NCBI GenBank assembly: GCA_017481235.1
Contig: JAFUPL010000030.1
Span: forward strand, 578 to 64,577
Reading direction: 5' to 3'
DNA from: Clostridia bacterium
GTDB taxonomy: Bacteria; Bacillota; Clostridia; Christensenellales; UBA1242
Length of the DNA stretch: 64,000 nt
Below are positions 14,902 to 64,000 of the stretch, piece by piece (position 1 is the first letter of the stretch; each line of letters starts with the position of its first letter). A model generated the notes under the pieces. That model was not told the origin of the DNA, searched no databases, and saw only the letters and a program-made list of their open reading frames with translations. The position numbers were made by a program, and so were the translations under genes.

Positions 14902-16320
14902 TTATCTAGTATATTTTTTATAAAATAAAACATTGTAAACAAAGTCAAGAACAACAACAGAACCAAGCATTACTGGAGCAATAAAATTTGCAAAATTACT
15001 TAACGAAAATATCGTTGAAATATTGGTAGATATAGTTAAATTGTATGAAAATATGATAATAGTTAAAGACAAGAATAGTGATAACTTAATAAAGAAATCT
15101 CTTGATATTGAATACTTAAATGGTCGTGTACAATATTTTAATCGAAGTTTTGAAATATTTACTAATAATATTATTGGATATAATATTAAAATCAAACAAA
15201 CTATAATTGCGGATATATAATAAACATTACTAAATGAGTATTTACTACATGCAATCAAACTTATAATAAACATAACTAGCAAACTAATGCAAGTAGCACT
15301 CATTTTTTGAATATGCTTAGATATGGTTTTTTTGCGTTTAATTACCGATTTATCATTACTAAAATCTACATAATTTAAAAATTTAATTTGTTCAATTGGC
15401 GCAATGTAAGATGAGTCCGTATCAATTGGTTGATTTTCAACTTGAGTAATAAGTTCAGTATTTGGACTTAATTTATCGTATAATTTATTTGGAGAAGGGT
15501 TTTCTACAATGGGTTCAACTTTTTCAGTAAACATAGTAGGGGAGGTTTCATTTTCAATATACTGATTAACATTGCTATTATCCTCAATATTAGTCATTTC
15601 ACTTAAATTATTTTCACCGATGCCGTTATCACTGCTACTAAAATCAATAGCGTCAAATATATTAATAGATGATGTTGTGGTGATTTTATCATCTTCGTTA
15701 AACAAATCATTGCTATTTGGACGTTCGATTTCTATGCTATATGTAGGAATATCCTCTTGTATATTGATTGTTAAATCCGATTGTGAGTCAGTAGTATTAC
15801 TAATATCAAGTTCCTCATTAACCATAGGTTCAACAATTGAGTTGTTAATATTCGTAAAAGTAGTAGTCAAATCAATAGGTGAGGGAGAGATTGTGTTAGT
15901 ACCATCCGTTATCAAACTATCATCAATTATTTCATCAGCCTTAGATATATCTTGCACTGGTTGAGATTCAAAATTTGAGTTACTGTTTTCAGATACGGGA
16001 GAGGTGATACCAGTATTAACACCTTCACTTTCAAGTATATCTTTAATCAACGTGGTAAAAGGAGGGTAAGTTTCAAGTTGTTGCTTACCATTGTCCGTTA
16101 ATTTATAATAGTGACGCTTACCACCAATTTCACTATCTTGCCAATACGATGAAATAAATCTACCTTGCTCTAATTTCTTAAGAACACTATATAGGGTAGG
16201 TTGCTTGATAATTATTCCACCATTAGAACTTTCCTCAATTTGCTTAACAATCTCATAACCATATTTGTCCCCATCAACCAATTGATACAAAATTATAGGA
16301 ATCAAATCCGTAGTTTTCAT
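14902..16320 (-). CDS. PadR-family transcriptional regulator fused to a long low-complexity linker and C-terminal TM helices
   Basis: The N-terminal 85 aa form a PadR winged helix (GDKYGYEIVKQIEE..PTLYSVLKKLEQGRFISSYW..GGKRHYYKLTDNGK). An acidic S/N/T-rich region follows, then about 4 hydrophobic helices. Confidence 0.7.
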   Translation of the reverse strand: MKTTDLIPIILYQLVDGDKYGYEIVKQIEESSNGGIIIKQPTLYSVLKKLEQGRFISSYWQDSEIGGKRHYYKLTDNGKQQLETYPPFTTLIKDILESEGVNTGITSPVSENSNSNFESQPVQDISKADEIIDDSLITDGTNTISPSPIDLTTTFTNINNSIVEPMVNEELDISNTTDSQSDLTINIQEDIPTYSIEIERPNSNDLFNEDDKITTTSSINIFDAIDFSSSDNGIGENNLSEMTNIEDNSNVNQYIENETSPTMFTEKVEPIVENPSPNKLYDKLSPNTELITQVENQPIDTDSSYIAPIEQIKFLNYVDFSNDKSVIKRKKTISKHIQKMSATCISLLVMFIISLIACSKYSFSNVYYISAIIVCLILILYPIILLVNISKLRLKYCTRPFKYSISRDFFIKLSLFLSLTIIIFSYNLTISTNISTIFSLSNFANFIAPVMLGSVVVLDFVYNVLFYKKYTR

Positions 16321-16474
16321 ATAAACCCCTCACATCTTTTCTATTAATAATTATATAGCATATTGTAACTTATTGTCAAACAAAATTAAAAAATTTATAA
16401 ACATTAAGGTAGGGCAGTGGTAGTATTATTGCCGTTTAACACTAATGAGGGTGAAGAATGGAATATACTAAACT

Positions 16475-16500
16475 ATTCGTAAAATACAGATTTTACGAAT
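16475..16500. promoter_or_regulatory. perfect 11-bp inverted repeat ATTCGTAAAAT-N4-ATTTTACGAAT (operator-like)
   Basis: Read directly from the sequence. It shares the 15-mer CTATTCGTAAAATAC with 61364-61378 and lies 153 nt upstream of the PadR-like start codon. Confidence 0.5.
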
Positions 16501-16905
16501 ACATGATGTTTTTTGTTTTTCAAATCCCATAAAATTTATAAAACATGTTTTGTATAATTTAATTATACTTTTCATTTAGTTGTATTGCTTGTGTCCTTCA
16601 TATTCTCTAATATTTTTAATCATAAAGTTGATTTTTAAATAAACGTTTGAAAATGCTAAGTTTTACAACACTTTTTAGTTGACCAAATCCTTGTCTTAAA
16701 AACACATCTCGGCGCTGAGAGCATTTTAGATTTTTAATAACTATTGATACGACTTATATTATCAATTAGTTTAGTTGATTTTTTAAAGACAACTATTTTT
16801 TTATATAATTTATATGTTTTATAAGATGTGTAGTTAAAATATTAGAATTTGTATTATTAAAATCAATATCAAATAACTATCATTTTTAACACTATTTAAA
16901 GATAT

Positions 16906-16936
16906 AAAAAACCTAGAGTTAGTTTATAACTCTAAG
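16906..16936 (-). terminator. serS intrinsic terminator
   Basis: Stem TAGAGTT/AACTCTA followed by T6 on the minus strand. Confidence 0.7.
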
Positions 16937-16990
16937 TTTAATATTATAATAATTACTATATAATGTGTACGTATCTATACAAAACACACA

Positions 16991-23507: not shown

Positions 23508-23825
23508 TTAAAAATCTTCCTTACACCATGATTTAGTGTTACAATAAGGACAACGCAATCTACGTCTTGTTGGAGTATGAATTGCCCATATTATAGTATT
23601 TGCTGAAGGTTTGAATATTTGATTACATTTAGGACATACAAACTTTACATGGTTCATATATATAACGATTGTACATACAAATAATATTATAAATACTGGA
23701 CAAATCACTGCAAAAGGAATCCAAGTATTTAACTCAGTCCAAATAATTATACTTCCAGCAAAAGCCACAATCATTAAAATTGTAGCAATTGCCATAAACA
23801 AATATAACTTCTTGCGTTTGTTCAT
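23508..23825 (-). CDS. small membrane protein with C-terminal zinc-ribbon (CPKC..CPYC)
   Basis: Two TM helices and a 4-Cys ribbon. The start is moved to the ATG at 23825, which follows GGTAGGAGATAGT. Confidence 0.5.
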   Translation of the reverse strand: MNKRKKLYLFMAIATILMIVAFAGSIIIWTELNTWIPFAVICPVFIILFVCTIVIYMNHVKFVCPKCNQIFKPSANTIIWAIHTPTRRRLRCPYCNTKSWCKEDF

Positions 23826-23838
23826 ACTATCTCCTACC

Positions 23839-23888
23839 ATAATGCGAAAGCGTCCTTAATTTTTCACTTTTCACTATTCATTCTTCAT
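23839..23888. repeat. H-element copy 1: ATAATGCGAAAGC module + 4 tandem heptamers (TTTTCAC TTTTCAC TATTCAT TCTTCAT)
   Basis: Read directly from the sequence. It fills the whole gap between the rny stop (23890) and the next RBS. The 13-mer and 14-mer are shared exactly with other copies. Confidence 0.8.
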
Positions 23889-23889
23889 T

Positions 23890-25488
23890 TTATTTTGCGG
23901 TGTCACTAAAACGAGATTCACGGATAACATATACTTTGATTTGACCTGGATATTCAAGTTCTTTTTCAATCTTTTGAGCAATATCACGAGCCAAAACTTG
24001 TGCTTTAGCGTCATCAACTTCTTCTGGTTTAACCATTACACGAACTTCACGACCTGCTTGGATAGCATAAGCGGTATCAATACCATCAAAACTAGTAGCA
24101 ATTGCTTCAAGGTTTTGAAGACGTTTGATATAGTTTTCCAAACTTTCACGTCTAGCACCTGGGCGCGCACTACTAATAGTATCAGCCGCTTGAACTAGCA
24201 CTGCTTCGATAGTTTGAGGTTCGATATCATTGTGGTGAGCGTGAATACAGTGTATTACAGCATCACTTTCCTTGTACTTTTTGGCAAGTTCTACACCAAT
24301 TGATACGTGTGTGCCATCAACTTCATGGTCAATCGCCTTACCAATATCGTGTAATAGACCTGCACGTTTAGCAACTTTGGCATTAGCGCCAATTTCAGTT
24401 GCAAGCATACTAGCAATATATGCCACTTCCAACGAATGATTTAATACATTTTGACCATAACTTGTACGATACTTTAGTCTACCTAAAGTTTTAACAAGTT
24501 CTGGATGCAAGTTGTGGATATCAGCATCAAAACATGCTTCCTCACCTGCTTGCTTAATAGTTTGTTCAACGTCTTTACGAACCTTATTTACCAACTCCTC
24601 AATACGTGCCGGATGAATACGTCCGTCCATAATAAGTTTTTCAAGTGCAATACGAGCAATTTCACGTCTTACTGGATCAAATCCAGACAATGTGATTGCT
24701 TCAGGAGTATCATCAACTATAAGGTCAACACCAGTTGCTGCTTCAAGTGCCCTAATATTACGACCTTCACGACCAATAATACGTCCTTTCATCTCCTCGC
24801 TAGGAAGAGTAACTACTGATACAGTTGCCTCAGCGGTTTGGTCAGCGGCACATCGTTGAATTGCAAGTGTAATGATATTACGTGCAATCTTATCAGCGTC
24901 ATTTTTTGCTTGTTCTTCAATTTCTTTTACCTTTTTAGATGCATCAATCTTTGCTTCTTGAGTGTAGCGAGCAATGATTTCTTCTTTGGCTTGTTCCTTA
25001 GAATAACCTGCCACTTCCTCTAACTTAGCCACTACTTGCATTTTAGCATCTTCAAGTTCTTGAGATTTTTCAACTAATTGTTGTTCACGCTCAACAAGTT
25101 TTTCCTTTTGAATATCAATTGCTTCCAACTTTTTATCAAGATTTTCCTCTTTTTTGTCAAGGTTTGCTTCACGTAAAGTGATACGTTCCTCACTGCGCTT
25201 TGCTTCTTCCCTACGTTCGCGGTTTTCTGCTTCAAAAGTAGACTTTAGCAAATTGATTTCATCAGTTGTTTGCTTTAATTGTTGTTGTTTAATATTTTTT
25301 GCTTGTGCGTAAGCGTCCTCTAATATCTTGTTTGCTTGTGCCTTACTGCCTTCTATCTTTTTACCATATAAAAATTTGTTTAACACAAAACCTGCACCAG
25401 CGCCCACTCCAAGAGCCACTATCACAGATATAACGATTGTTAATATTAAAGGAGCACCACTCATAAGCATAGTACTACTAATGCTCAT
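23890..25488 (-). CDS. rny: ribonuclease Y
   Basis: N-terminal TM helix, coiled coil, KH domain ([15 protein letters not shown]) and HD domain ([10 protein letters not shown]). Confidence 0.95.
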
Positions 25489-52229: not shown

Positions 52230-52291
52230 GGCAATGATGTCTATTATTGCCAATTATTCATTTTTCATTATTCATTCTTCATTAATCATTA
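52230..52291. repeat. H-element copy 2: hairpin GGCAAT..ATTGCC + 5 heptamers with TCA at exact 7-nt spacing
   Basis: TCA starts at 52058+200n? no: C of TCA at 52259, 52266, 52273, 52280, 52287. The 18-mer ATTATTCATTCTTCATTA (52267-52284) is identical to 63651-63668 and overlaps the pcrA stop codon. Confidence 0.8.
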
Positions 52292-56446: not shown

Positions 56447-56637
56447 CTTAATCCTTTGTTATAAATGTATAATAAAACATTATATTATTAGGCATCTTAA
56501 GTATGAAACTTGCACCTATATAGCGTGACTGGCGATATGAACAATATAATACGATAACTTCCTCAATGCAAACTTGTTTGCGCTTCATAGTACACTAAGT
56601 CCTACTTCATATCTTCATAAGCGAAACGTCTTCATAT
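56447..56637. repeat. multi-hairpin element, copy E (family A/B/E), inside the spoIIA operon
   Basis: Positions 56491-56552 are colinear with copy A. Positions 56613-56637 are the reverse complement of the copy B 25-mer (24/25). There are four CTTCATA words. The element starts directly after the spoIIAA stop codon. Confidence 0.8.
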
Positions 56638-61801: not shown

Positions 61802-61813
61802 TACCAAATTTTT

Positions 61814-61893
61814 AACTTTTCACTCTTCATTTTTCATTTCAAAAATAATCCAACTAAGTGAAAAATGAAAAATAAAAGTGAAAAACGAAGAGT
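61814..61893. repeat. H-element copy 4: opposed heptamer arrays forming a long hairpin
   Basis: The left arm (TTTTCAC TCTTCAT TTTTCAT) pairs with the right arm (GTGAAAA ATGAAAA .. GTGAAAA ACGAAGA). The 16-position stem spans 61822-61837 and 61878-61893 with one mismatch and one G-U pair. Confidence 0.75.
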
Positions 61894-63524: not shown

Positions 63525-63630
63525 AACAATTCTCCTTAACTTGACACAAGTGTATCATATATACAATCTCTTGTCAAGTATAAATAACCAAAAAAAAGCC
63601 TAATCTAATAGACTTTTTTGTTATAACAAT

Positions 63631-63681
63631 ATAATGCGAAAGCATCCTTTATTATTCATTCTTCATTATTCACTTATCATT
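63631..63681. repeat. H-element copy 3: ATAATGCGAAAGC module + 4 heptamers
   Basis: The 13-mer is identical to 23839-23851, the 14-mer ATTCATTCTTCATT (63654-63667) is identical to copies 1 and 2, and TCA recurs at exact 7-nt spacing. The element ends 6 nt from the spoIVA stop codon. Confidence 0.8.
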
Positions 63682-63686
63682 GCATA

Positions 63687-64000
63687 TTACAATAATATGC
63701 ATAATAGTCCGCCCTTGCCCTCATTTACTATACGAGATAAAGTTTTGCGTAACTTGTTTTGCAAAGCAACTGGCATAGCGGTTAATTTGTTGTTTAGATC
63801 TTCGTTGACTAAACTCTCTAAACTTTTACCAAACATATTTGTTTGCCATATACCTTTAGGGTTATTTTCAAACTCTTTTAATAGATACTGTGCCATTTCT
63901 TCACTTTGTTGCACTCCACCCATAATTGGACTCACTTCGGTTTGAACATTAACTTTCATAATATGCAAACTTGGAGCATTTGCCTTTAATTTAACACCAC
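63687..64000 (-). CDS. spoIVA: stage IV sporulation protein A, C-terminal fragment (gene continues beyond window)
   Basis: MFGKSLESLVNEDLNNKLTAMP and the terminal IVNEGKGGLLCILL resemble the conserved SpoIVA C-terminus. The frame is open to the window edge. Confidence 0.75.
   Translation of the reverse strand, partial: GVKLKANAPSLHIMKVNVQTEVSPIMGGVQQSEEMAQYLLKEFENNPKGIWQTNMFGKSLESLVNEDLNNKLTAMPVALQNKLRKTLSRIVNEGKGGLLCILL

What the first reader, a model, noticed from the sequence alone, without database searches (positions are those of the whole stretch)
23839..23888. Conserved module ATAATGCGAAAGC + 7-nt-period TTCAYNN array fills the gap after the rny stop codon
The plus strand reads ATAATGCGAAAGCGTCCTTAATT followed by TTTTCAC TTTTCAC TATTCAT TCTTCAT, ending 1 nt before the rny stop codon. 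The same module recurs at 63631-63681 after spoIVA, with an identical 13-mer ATAATGCGAAAGC and an identical 14-mer ATTCATTCTTCATT. The array alone recurs at 52257-52291. The GCGAAAGC core is a short GAAA-tetraloop hairpin. Between copies a G/A change keeps pairing only if the plus strand is read as RNA (U-G versus U-A). That hints weakly that the strand antisense to the genes may be the relevant one. On the coding strand the units read (A/G)TGAANA. Because 7 is 1 mod 3, both TGA and ATG fall in all three frames. On the plus strand the array is a cluster of UCAY tetranucleotides. I do not recognise this element.
Basis: seen in the sequence. Interest (0 to 1): 0.6.

Follow-up and report, generated by a model that had tools for sequence, protein, structure and literature searches.

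The report
Heptamer-repeat insert between operon genes
This is a real, small repeat family found only in one group of uncultured gut Clostridia: a run of 7-base units plus a conserved 22-base box that sits between genes of the same operon, and its chain of tiny start/stop reading frames may pass ribosomes from one gene to the next.

Summary
The window carries four sense-strand arrays of the heptamer RTGAANA: after rny, after pcrA, after a tRNA cluster and after spoIVA. None occurred in 200 simulated sequences. Two arrays are followed by the box ATTAAGGAYGCTTTCGCATTAT. There is also a decayed copy between spoIIAA and spoIIAB, and a sixth copy lies 2 kb outside the window.

Fourteen array-plus-box sequences from about 10 loci were collected in Candidatus Onthoplasma and related Clostridia MAGs. 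All point the same way as the downstream gene. They fill gene-to-gene gaps that are 9-13 nt or otherwise empty in close relatives.

No RNA structure, Rfam family or promoter is supported. The GAAA-hairpin and antisense-strand reading fails.

An ATG lies within -1 to +2 nt of the upstream stop codon at all 8 independent junctions tested, against 17% for control genes. The array is a chain of overlapping mini-ORFs. The frame through the box stays free of stops (0 of 14 stop triplets) and ends within -7 to +9 nt of the next start codon in 6 of 9 copies.

Best reading: an intercistronic insert like the mycobacterial MIRU repeats, built on a heptanucleotide repeat, that keeps translational coupling intact. 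Translation itself is inferred, not shown. I rate it a new variant of known kinds, of moderate interest.

The parts
23861..23889 (-). Copy A, array. The sense strand reads A ATGAAGA ATGAATA GTGAAAA GTGAAAA and starts 1 nt after the rny stop codon (23890-23892).
   Evidence: Identical in three other assemblies of the same species. Absent after rny in five relatives.
23839..23860 (-). Copy A, conserved box ATTAAGGACGCTTTCGCATTAT. It lies 8 nt upstream of the Shine-Dalgarno sequence AGGAG of the next gene, a 105-aa membrane protein whose ATG is at 23825.
   Evidence: Model R1 scores the whole element (23829-23888) at 62 bits, E = 8e-18; it is one of the sequences the model was built from.
23874..23888 (-). 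Copy A, mini-ORF 1: ATG AAG AAT GAA TAG (MKNE*). It starts 1 nt after the rny stop.
23827..23874 (-). Copy A, mini-ORF 2: GTG...TAG (MKSEKLRTLSHYGRR*). It overlaps the stop of mini-ORF 1 by 1 nt, reads through the box, and ends 1 nt before the ATG of the next gene.
52255..52289 (-). Copy B, array ATGATTA ATGAAGA ATGAATA ATGAAAA ATGAATA. It overlaps the pcrA stop codon as TAATG. It has no box.
   Evidence: At the same site in relatives, L330 is empty, L331 has 3-4 units, and L332 has 4 units plus the box.
52230..52251 (-). Copy B, hairpin GGCAAT...ATTGCC between the array and the ligA Shine-Dalgarno sequence. On the + strand, this hairpin followed by the T-rich array scores as terminator-like.
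61810..61837 (-). Copy C, array ATGAAAA ATGAAGA GTGAAAA GTTAAAA. It lies directly upstream of the promoter-like site TTGACT-16-TATAAT (61801-61774) of a 106-aa ORF.
61858..61885 (+). Copy C, inverted partner array (TTTTTCAC TTTTATT TTTCATT TTTCAC on the gene strand). It lies 19 nt upstream of the direct array and after the terminator of the tRNA cluster.
63653..63680 (-). Copy D, array ATGATAA GTGAATA ATGAAGA ATGAATA, 6 nt after the spoIVA stop codon.
63631..63652 (-). Copy D, box ATAAAGGATGCTTTCGCATTAT(ATTG).
63590..63619 (.). Copy D, A-tract, hairpin (AGTCTA...TAGGCT) and T-tract directly after the box. It looks like a terminator in both directions, but this is read by eye; the scan tool did not flag it.
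   Evidence: Not reported.
56470..56637 (-). Copy F, decayed. The spoIIAA-spoIIAB gap is about 190 nt here, against 9-13 nt in relatives. It starts with ATGAAGA 2 nt after the stop codon and contains box-like ATTGAGGAAGTTATCGTATTATATTGTT (56540-56567) and GAAGACGTTTCGCTTAT.
   Evidence: (E = 0.064, weak).

Best explanation
What it is. This is a lineage-specific dispersed repeat of about 55-65 nt, found in Candidatus Onthoplasma and closely related uncultured spore-forming Clostridia. It has two parts: a heptanucleotide tandem array (RTGAANA, 3-5 units) and a conserved box (ATTAAGGAYGCTTTCGCATTAT). It occupies short gene-to-gene gaps inside operons, or 5' leaders, always pointing the same way as transcription. 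It is gained, lost and remodelled between close relatives.

How it most likely works (inferred, not shown). It is transcribed as part of the operon mRNA and behaves as a translational bridge.
1. Its first ATG sits on or next to the stop codon of the upstream gene.
2. The 7-nt period (7 = 1 mod 3) makes RUGA, UAAUG and UAGUG start/stop overlaps in every frame. A ribosome that terminates in any frame can therefore restart on a chain of 4-6-codon mini-ORFs.
3. The last mini-ORF runs through the box and ends at or near the start codon of the next gene.

The insert would therefore preserve translational coupling, and stop any read-through, across a gap it has lengthened by 50-180 nt. That would explain why it is tolerated inside essential operons. 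This is the logic described for mycobacterial MIRUs.

The box is conserved as nucleotides, not as a peptide, so it probably has a further sequence-specific role that remains unknown.
For: Repeat family:
- A whole-collection scan found 8 true copies, all in Onthoplasma or 'Clostridia bacterium' MAGs.
- Further copies were found in L130, L331, L332 and L338.
- A sequence-only model scores the 14 array-plus-box training sequences, plus a duplicate fetch of copy D, at 47-64 bits. Its only new matches are the bare arrays B and C and the decayed copy F.

Insertion and turnover:
- After rny: L006 has the stop codon directly overlapping the next Shine-Dalgarno sequence, L004 and L007 have a terminator, and L129 and L130 carry other sequence.
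- pcrA-ligA gap: empty in L330, different versions in L331, L332 and the window.
- spoIIAA-spoIIAB gap: 9-13 nt in three relatives, about 190 nt here.
- spoVAE-yunB gap: filled only in L130.

Orientation: every copy with a flanking gene points the same way as the downstream gene.

5' junction: an ATG lies at -1, 0, +1 or +2 nt from the upstream stop codon in 8 of 8 independent loci. The rate for 110 control genes is 17% (and the sequences).

Relay: the chains run unbroken in three cases.
- rny: +1, MKNE*, -1, MKSEKLRTLSHYGRR*, +1, next gene.
- rbgA: 0, M*, -1, MNNEE*, -4, MKSEKLRTLSLYMIRRYK*, -4 (ATGA), rnhB.
- pcrA (L332): -1, -4, -4, +9, ligA.

3' side: between the box and 12 nt before the next start codon there are 14 stop triplets, and none is in the frame that leaves the array. 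P = 0.003, or about 0.012 for 6 independent loci. That frame ends at -7 to +9 nt from the start codon in 6 of 9 copies.

Stability: the arrays are identical in 4-5 assemblies of the species.

[quoted passage not shown] Heptamer repeats are the most abundant long simple repeats in many bacteria, and TAACTGA arrays lie just upstream of start codons (PMC4679880; PMC4692102).
Against: - No expression or ribosome data exist. Translation of the mini-ORFs is inferred from sequence only.
- The mini-ORF starts have no Shine-Dalgarno sequence of their own.
- Much of the relay follows automatically from the RTGA periodicity. Only the two junctions and the open tail are independent evidence, and the sample is small (about 9 independent loci).
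- Five copies (D, L309, L310, L318, L332) have TAA just before the box. Three of these keep a perfectly conserved box across three genomes.
- Copy E has a 1-nt insertion that shifts the frame through the box. The box is therefore not conserved for a peptide, and the relay model does not explain it.
- In copies D, E, F, L315a and L331b the last mini-ORF ends far from the next start codon.
- Copy C is not between two cistrons. It lies upstream of a promoter and has an inverted partner.
- No transposition mechanism, terminal inverted repeat or target-site duplication could be defined.
Confidence: 0.45

Rival explanations
1. Binding-site array for a sequence-specific protein. One version is a DNA operator of the omega type: pSM19035 omega, a ribbon-helix-helix (RHH) protein, binds 7-10 contiguous 7-bp heptads WATCACW in direct or inverted orientation. 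The other version is an RNA-binding protein such as S1, a cold-shock protein (Csp) or CsrA, as proposed for TAACTGA repeats. The box would be a second recognition site.
For: - The 7-bp period, 4-5 contiguous units, and direct plus inverted sets directly upstream of the -35 element at copy C match the omega paradigm. There, at least 4 contiguous heptads are needed for full activity (PMC9499535).
- The reverse complement of the omega heptad, WGTGATW, matches AGTGAAA at 5-6 of 7 positions.
- The box is conserved at nucleotide level regardless of reading frame. It stays identical in three genomes while the neighbouring array decays.
- The box contains AAGGA, and in copy D ARGGAUG, which resemble CsrA sites as I recall them from memory. 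A second GGA lies in the Shine-Dalgarno sequence 10-30 nt downstream.
Against: - Most copies lie inside operons directly after stop codons and have no promoter. The scan found none at A or B.
- All copies have one orientation, which a DNA operator does not need.
- No RHH or omega-like family was detected in ten small ORFs scanned against Pfam or in the neighbours of the copies. The regulator could, however, be encoded elsewhere.
- The downstream genes have no common theme: a membrane protein, ligA, rnhB, rpsP, yunB, a PHP-like protein.
- AAGGA is missing from the box in L332.
Confidence: 0.2
2. Functionless heptanucleotide simple-sequence repeat, of the kind seeded by polymerase slippage on stop-proximal AATGATTAATGA-like sequence, plus hitch-hiking flanking sequence. 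It would persist in intergenic DNA only because it does no harm.
For: - Heptamer repeats are the most abundant class of long simple repeats in many bacterial genomes, and slippage has been proposed as the cause.
- Unit number differs between species at the pcrA site: 5, 4 and 3-4 units.
- L130 shows a perfect 14-nt duplication.
- A control heptamer array of the same composition, RGTAANA x4, is also abundant in viral contigs.
- The array decays in L318.
Against: - The same array-plus-box composite recurs at about 10 unrelated loci with a nearly identical 17-22-nt box. Independent slippage cannot produce this.
- Orientation is uniform.
- The ATG-on-stop junctions and the stop-free tail frame are non-random.
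- There is no length variation within the species.
- The box is conserved where its flanks have diverged.
Confidence: 0.2
3. One reading: the + strand, antisense to the genes, is the functional one. It would form a small GAAA-tetraloop hairpin followed by a U-rich UCAY array, for example to terminate or load a factor onto antisense transcripts.
For: - At copy B the + strand hairpin followed by the T-rich array is flagged as terminator-like, with 0.0 expected in shuffles.
- The arrays contain no G on the + strand.
- The G/A difference between copies A and D keeps a U-G or U-A pair on the + strand.
Against: - The hairpin has 2-4 bp and folds at -3.1 kcal/mol, z = -0.35.
- The flanking pair is kept in only about 6 of 10 copies, read by eye from the alignments.
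- No + strand promoter was found.
- In L309, L310 and L318 the element lies in a sense-strand leader.
- No Rfam family matches on either strand.
Confidence: 0.05
4. Internal promoter for an alternative sigma factor, for example a forespore sigma-G-like site with TGAATA as the -35 element and CATTATA as the -10 element. It would drive the downstream gene independently of the operon.
For: - The organism is a spore former: spoIVA, spoVA, the spoIIA operon and yunB are in or near the window.
- GAATA...CATTATA resembles the Bacillus subtilis sigma-G consensus GHATR / CATXHTA, as I recall it from memory.
Against: - The spacing is 16 nt rather than 17-18.
- The T of the -35 element and the CAT of the -10 element are not conserved among copies: GTGAAAA and GTGAAGA occur at the -35 position, and CGCTTTAT and CGCGTTCT at the -10 position.
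- The predicted transcription start would fall inside the Shine-Dalgarno sequence at copy A.
- Copy D is followed directly by a terminator-like hairpin.
Confidence: 0.05

Closest known systems
Mycobacterial interspersed repetitive units (MIRUs)
   Same: - Both are short dispersed repeats found in gaps between genes of one operon and oriented with those genes.
- Both are present or absent between relatives.
- Both carry a small internal ORF whose ends abut or overlap the stop and start codons of the flanking genes (ATGA, -4 nt), so that insertion has little effect on expression (PMC12548453).
- Here the junction gaps are -1 to +2 nt at the 5' side, and -4, -4, +1, +2, -7 and +9 nt at the 3' side.
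   Different: - There is no sequence relationship, and the phylum differs.
- The repeating unit here is 7 nt rather than 40-100 bp.
- The reading frame is not fixed. The heptamer offers all three frames.
- There is an extra conserved 22-nt box.
- The 3' coupling is seen in only about half of the copies.
Heptanucleotide long simple-sequence repeats: cyanobacterial STRR, TAACTGA repeats of Beggiatoaceae, cyanobacteria and Bacteroidetes, GGGAATC of Xanthomonas
   Same: - Tandem 7-nt units, 2-6 copies per set, at many intergenic loci.
- Mostly in 'forward' orientation just upstream of start codons, including ribosomal-protein operons.
- Stop codons inside the unit.
- Function unknown (PMC4679880; PMC4692102).
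   Different: - The unit sequence differs: RTGAANA, which also carries a start codon.
- Copy number per genome is low.
- The array is coupled to a fixed non-repeated box, so the whole composite is what gets copied.
- The host uses clear Shine-Dalgarno sequences, so the array is not a substitute for one.
Omega (ParB-pSM) heptad operator and parS arrays of plasmid pSM19035
   Same: - Contiguous 7-bp units in direct and inverted orientation.
- Four or more units.
- The cores are related (TCAC / GTGA).
- Copy C sits on a promoter.
   Different: - The consensus WATCACW is not met.
- Most copies are not at promoters.
- No cognate RHH gene was found.
- The elements are chromosomal and sit inside operons.

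Membership tests
Heptanucleotide simple-sequence repeat (LSSR / STRR type) | Head-to-tail repeats with a 7-nt unit, at least 3 copies, beyond chance | tested here: met
   TRF finds period-7 arrays at 23861-91, 52253-91, 61808-39, 61859-89 and 63651-81. There are 4 strict arrays against 0 in 200 simulations.
Heptanucleotide simple-sequence repeat (LSSR / STRR type) | Copy-number variation by slippage between strains | tested here: not met
   The arrays are identical in 4-5 independent assemblies of the species. Unit number differs only between species.
MIRU-like intercistronic repeat | Located in gaps between co-directional genes and oriented with them | tested here: met
   The gaps are rny-next gene, pcrA-ligA, spoIIAA-spoIIAB, spoVAE-yunB, rbgA-rnhB, ffh-rpsP and ThiF-like-thioredoxin. 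All copies have the sense orientation.
MIRU-like intercistronic repeat | Internal small ORF whose start abuts the upstream stop codon and whose stop abuts the downstream start codon | tested here: inconclusive
   The 5' junction is met in 8 of 8 independent loci, against 17% of controls. The 3' junction is met in 6 of 9 copies. Five copies have a stop codon before the box. Translation has not been shown.
MIRU-like intercistronic repeat | Presence/absence polymorphism at orthologous sites (mobility) | tested here: met
   Empty sites are found in L006, L330, L004, L006 and L007. No target-site duplication or terminal repeat could be defined.
Omega-type RHH heptad operator / parS | Heptads that match WATCACW | tested here: not met
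   The units are WTTTCAY on the + strand and RTGAANA on the - strand, which is 5-6 of 7 at best against WGTGATW.
Omega-type RHH heptad operator / parS | Arrays overlap promoters, with a cognate RHH gene nearby | tested here: not met
   Only copy C adjoins a promoter. No promoter-like site was found at A or B. No RHH or omega family was found in the ORFs scanned. The rest of the genome could not be examined.
Structured RNA motif (GNRA hairpin or any Rfam family) | Stable fold that is conserved or covarying, or a match to a curated family | tested here: not met
   Fold z-scores range from -1.2 to +0.7. The consensus fold is -1.0 kcal/mol with 0 compensatory pairs. Rfam gives no match at gathering score and only chance-level matches at E up to 1.
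Intrinsic terminator | G+C-rich hairpin followed by a T run on the transcribed strand | tested here: not met
   None was found on the sense strand at A or B. At B a + strand site is flagged. At D a separate hairpin follows the box.

The most novel reading that the evidence does not exclude
The heptamer array is a frame-independent ribosome relay. Because 7 = 1 mod 3, a run of RUGA units offers an overlapping stop/start in every frame. A short mobile cassette can then drop into any operon gap, catch the ribosome leaving the upstream gene whatever its frame, and hand it to the next cistron. If true, this gives a functional reason why 7-nt units dominate intergenic tandem repeats. It might extend to the (GTGAAGA)n arrays that follow TAA codons in many phage contigs.
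Probability: 0.2. Interest if true: 0.75.

Novelty: new variant of a known kind. Interest (0 to 1): 0.5.

Why it matters
Heptanucleotide tandem repeats are the commonest long simple repeats in many bacterial genomes, yet their function is essentially unknown. This family offers a small, well-bounded test case. The repeat is tied to a fixed box, has clear filled and empty sites in essential operons, and has junctions that point to termination-reinitiation.

If the relay idea holds, it would show how a selfish or regulatory insert can lengthen an operon gap 5- to 20-fold without breaking translational coupling. It would also provide a natural, frame-independent coupling cassette for synthetic operons.

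If it does not hold, the element is still a useful lineage marker and a known cause of assembly breaks in Onthoplasma MAGs.

Tried and rejected
- RNA structure. Single-sequence folds of both strands and RNAalifold on 11 copies gave weak folds and no covariation.
- Rfam. Nothing at gathering score for the whole window, and nothing meaningful at E up to 1 around copies A, B and D.
- Promoters. Sigma-70 scans found nothing at A or B. I compared sigma-G, -F, -E, -K, -H, ECF and sigma-54 consensus sequences by eye and from memory. Spacing or key bases fail, and the relevant bases are not conserved among copies.
- Conserved peptide. The variable box positions fit third-codon positions in two different frames. 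Copy E has a 1-nt frame shift, and five copies have a stop codon before the box. The box is therefore not conserved as a peptide.
- Transposon-like ends. No consistent terminal inverted repeat or target duplication appeared in filled-versus-empty site comparisons.
- Metagenome scan for the 18-mer AATTAAGGACGCTTTCGC. It returned 10 hits, all chance matches in unrelated contexts.
- Annotated phages and plasmids. Only fortuitous partial array matches; one lies inside a Segatella xyl3A gene.
- Exact-sequence literature search for the arrays. No relevant paper.
- Link to the phage element (GTGAAGA)n-ATTTGCTNCCGC. The shared GCTNNCGC was imposed by my own search pattern, and the shared 'ATT' is only a partial unit. 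Homology is therefore not established.
- cre, CodY, Spo0A and dif-like sites, checked by eye: poor matches.
Full report
**1. Observation**

ATAATGCGAAAGC is followed by GTCCTTAAT and then TTTTCAC TTTTCAC TATTCAT TCTTCAT. One further base separates the last unit from TTA at 23890-23892, which is the TAA stop codon of rny on the - strand.

The 13-mer recurs at 63631 and the 14-mer at 52270 and 63654. The ORF upstream of the 63.6-kb copy is the C-terminus of SpoIVA.

A pattern search and Tandem Repeats Finder add a fourth array at 61810-61837, with an inverted partner at 61858-61885.

Read on the gene (-) strand, the unit is RTGAANA. Three or more units in a row occur four times on that strand and never on the other. 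They never occurred in 200 Markov simulations.

The exact recurrence of a 13-mer or 14-mer means little by itself in this 31% G+C window, where 378 different 13-mers recur. The array, and the array-plus-box composite, are what is significant.

**2. Organism and setting**

The window comes from an uncultured spore-forming member of the Clostridia.
- rny, thiI, RNase H, pcrA, ligA, smc, the spoIIA operon, spoVA, yunB and spoIVA are all present.
- The closest named genomes are MAGs labelled Candidatus Onthoplasma.

All four arrays lie on the sense strand of the surrounding genes.
- Copy A starts 1 nt after the rny stop. It is followed by the box ATTAAGGACGCTTTCGCATTAT, then 8 nt, then the Shine-Dalgarno sequence and ATG of a 105-aa membrane protein.
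- Copy B overlaps the pcrA stop codon (TAATG). It is followed by a hairpin and then the ligA Shine-Dalgarno sequence.
- Copy C lies after the terminator of a tRNA cluster, directly upstream of a TTGACT-16-TATAAT promoter-like site.
- Copy D lies 6 nt after the spoIVA stop. It is followed by the box and a hairpin flanked by A and T runs.

**3. A family**

One scan of 185,579 species genomes, for the last array unit joined to the box, returned 11 stretches. Eight are true copies. All eight are in three Onthoplasma or 'Clostridia bacterium' MAGs, at 2-3 per genome. The other three are unrelated Lachnospiraceae contig ends.

More copies turned up in loci fetched for other reasons:
- L130, between spoVAE and yunB;
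- L331 and L332, between pcrA and ligA and after a MiaB-like gene;
- L315, between ffh and rpsP;
- copy E, 2 kb outside the window, after a ThiF-like gene.

A sequence-only model built from 14 copies scores those 14 sequences, plus a duplicate fetch of copy D, at 47-64 bits. Its only new matches are the bare arrays B and C and a decayed copy in the spoIIAA-spoIIAB gap.

A metagenome scan for the box alone gave only chance hits. As far as these collections show, the family is confined to this clade.

**4. Insertion and turnover**

Orthologous sites differ sharply between close relatives.
- After rny, L006 has the stop codon overlapping the next Shine-Dalgarno sequence. L004 and L007 have a plain terminator. 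L129 and L130 (94-96% RNase Y identity) carry unrelated 85-95-nt sequences.
- The pcrA-ligA gap is 11 nt plus the Shine-Dalgarno sequence in L330. In L331 it has 3-4 units and another tail, in L332 four units plus the box, and in the window five units plus a hairpin.
- The spoIIAA-spoIIAB gap is 9-13 nt in three relatives and about 190 nt here.

Other copies are shared by several genomes: L309, L310 and L318 at one site, and L313 and L315b at another. At the first of these sites the box is identical in three genomes, while the array and the downstream spacer have diverged.

Within the species the arrays are invariant, so this is not a phase-variable repeat. Two short-read contigs end inside array B, as expected of a multi-copy sequence.

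I could not define terminal inverted repeats or target duplications.

**5. What it is not**

Not a structured RNA.
- The + strand GAAA hairpin folds at -3.1 kcal/mol, with z = -0.35.
- Sense-strand folds have z between -1.2 and +0.7.
- The consensus fold is -1.0 kcal/mol with no compensatory change.
- Read by eye from the alignments, the pair flanking GCNNNNGC is kept in only about 6 of 10 copies on the + strand.
- Rfam has nothing.

Not a promoter.
- No sigma-70-like site is found at A or B.
- The candidate -35 and -10 bases for sporulation sigma factors are not conserved.

The box is not conserved as a peptide.
- Five copies have TAA just before it.
- Copy E has a 1-nt insertion that changes the frame.
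- The variable positions look 'synonymous' in two different frames.

**6. What the sequence does show about translation**

The 5' junction.
- At all eight independent junctions where the upstream gene end is adjacent, an ATG lies -1, 0, +1 or +2 nt from the stop codon. The forms are TAATG, TAA-ATG, TAG-ATG, TAA-A-ATG and TAG-AT-ATG.
- In several cases this ATG lies before the array proper.
- Among 110 control genes of the same clade the rate is 17%.

Inside the array.
- Each RUGA, UAAUG or UAGUG is an overlapping stop and start.
- The array is therefore a chain of 4-6-codon mini-ORFs that shifts frame at each step.

The 3' side.
- The last mini-ORF starts in the penultimate unit and runs through the box.
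- Between the box and 12 nt before the next start codon there are 14 stop triplets. None is in that frame. P = 0.003, or about 0.012 when only six independent loci are counted.
- The frame closes at +1, -4, -4, -7, +2 or +9 nt from the next start codon in 6 of 9 copies. In two more copies it is in frame with the gene.

For copy A the full chain is: rny TAA, +1, MKNE*, -1, MKSEKLRTLSHYGRR*, +1, ATG. The chains from rbgA to rnhB, and from pcrA to ligA in L332, are likewise unbroken.

**7. Interpretation**

The best-supported reading is a dispersed insert between cistrons that preserves, or provides, translational coupling across the gap it creates.

What is shown: the family exists, it is present or absent at orthologous sites, its orientation is uniform, and the junction and frame statistics are non-random.

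What is inferred: that ribosomes actually restart on the mini-ORFs. Equally, selection may simply have retained only those insertions that leave such a path open.

This matches what a recent review says of mycobacterial MIRUs. [quoted passage not shown]

The array also belongs to the known but unexplained class of heptanucleotide intergenic repeats.
- Heptamers are the most abundant long simple repeats in many bacteria.
- TAACTGA arrays lie in forward orientation just upstream of start codons, including ribosomal-protein operons (PMC4679880; PMC4692102).

The model does not explain the nucleotide-level conservation of the box, nor copy C. A protein-binding role therefore remains a serious rival. 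The precedent is the omega heptads of pSM19035: 7-bp units, direct or inverted, at least 4 contiguous, placed on promoters (PMC9499535). However, the consensus is not met, most copies are not at promoters, and no RHH gene was seen.

**8.

The observation, the association with stop codons and the frame remark hold. The hairpin and the antisense-strand hint do not. The one exception is the pcrA hairpin followed by the T-rich array, which scores as a terminator-like site on the + strand.

**9. Wider context, noticed on the way**

A control heptamer did the same, so abundance alone proves nothing.
- A sharply defined composite, (GTGAAGA)n-ATTT-GCT(A/G/T)CCGC, occurs in 74 stretches of 36-59% G+C phage contigs, with unrelated flanks.
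- It is often directly preceded by TAA (35 of 79).
- Gene ends often abut it on both sides, and a convergent ORF ends at the TAG inside GCGGTAGC in 16 of 73 cases.
- It is sometimes found as inverted pairs that would form long hairpins.
- Whether it is related to the Onthoplasma element is open, because my own search pattern imposed the shared GCTNNCGC.

**10. Verdict**

This is a real feature and a new variant of known kinds: a heptanucleotide intergenic repeat combined with MIRU-like behaviour between cistrons. Interest is moderate (0.5). Confidence in the coupling-bridge mechanism is 0.45.

Noticed in passing
Viral loci L010-L190, e.g. L022:3816-3854, L160:3652-3726, L148:425-463: A sharply conserved phage element, TTAA-(GTGAAGA/GTGAAAA)3-5-ATTT-GCT(A/G/T)CCGC, occurs in 74 stretches of IMG/VR contigs (36-59% G+C, possibly phages of Bacteroidota given the lack of Shine-Dalgarno sequences). 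Its flanks are unrelated. One 141-kb contig has at least 6 copies. Some copies form inverted pairs that would make long hairpins. ORF ends abut it on both sides.
   Followed up: partly
Viral loci L013, L031, L040, L047, L104, L114, L122, L123: These small contigs are packed with several different 7-nt-period arrays (ATGAACA/ATGAATA, AATGATT, CATTGAC/CATTGAT, GTGAGCAGAGGTCAGTGAACAGG). Heptamer periodicity as such seems to be a theme in some phage intergenic regions.
   Followed up: no
L004:16436-21291 and L007:18450-21596 (relatives); the corresponding window region is about 16320-16990: Two relatives carry a Microviridae-like prophage (Phage_F capsid, Chlamy_scaf, Phage_ORF5, Rep) between serS and the PadR-like gene. 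The window has only a gap of about 670 nt there.
   Followed up: no
window 56447-56637: The spoIIAA-spoIIAB gap is about 190 nt in this species, against 9-13 nt in three relatives. It holds decayed array units and two box-like sequences. This is an unusual disruption of a normally tightly coupled anti-sigma and anti-anti-sigma gene pair.
   Followed up: partly
L335:1-40 and L336:1-35 (equivalent to window about 52250-52290): Two independent short-read (Logan) contigs end inside the pcrA-ligA array. This suggests the array breaks assemblies because it is multi-copy.
   Followed up: no
L314:1-60, L316:1-60, L317:1-60: Three contigs of one Lachnospiraceae MAG all begin with the same sequence, AGCGCAATGAAAAATAAAGGAGGCTATCGCGCACATGCGCGATTTGGTTCAAT. 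This is probably the end of an insertion sequence or another repeat. It is unrelated to the element studied.
   Followed up: no
window 63687-63715 and L130:6633-6654: In copies D and L130 a 9-bp-stem hairpin that shares ...AAATGCAATGA lies between the stop codon and the array. In copy D it includes the last spoIVA codons. Its meaning is unknown.
   Followed up: no
L338:7790-7950 (just outside the window, downstream of copy E): An untranslated stretch of about 200 nt separates copy E from the thioredoxin gene. It contains GC-rich segments and was not examined for a leader or riboswitch.
   Followed up: no
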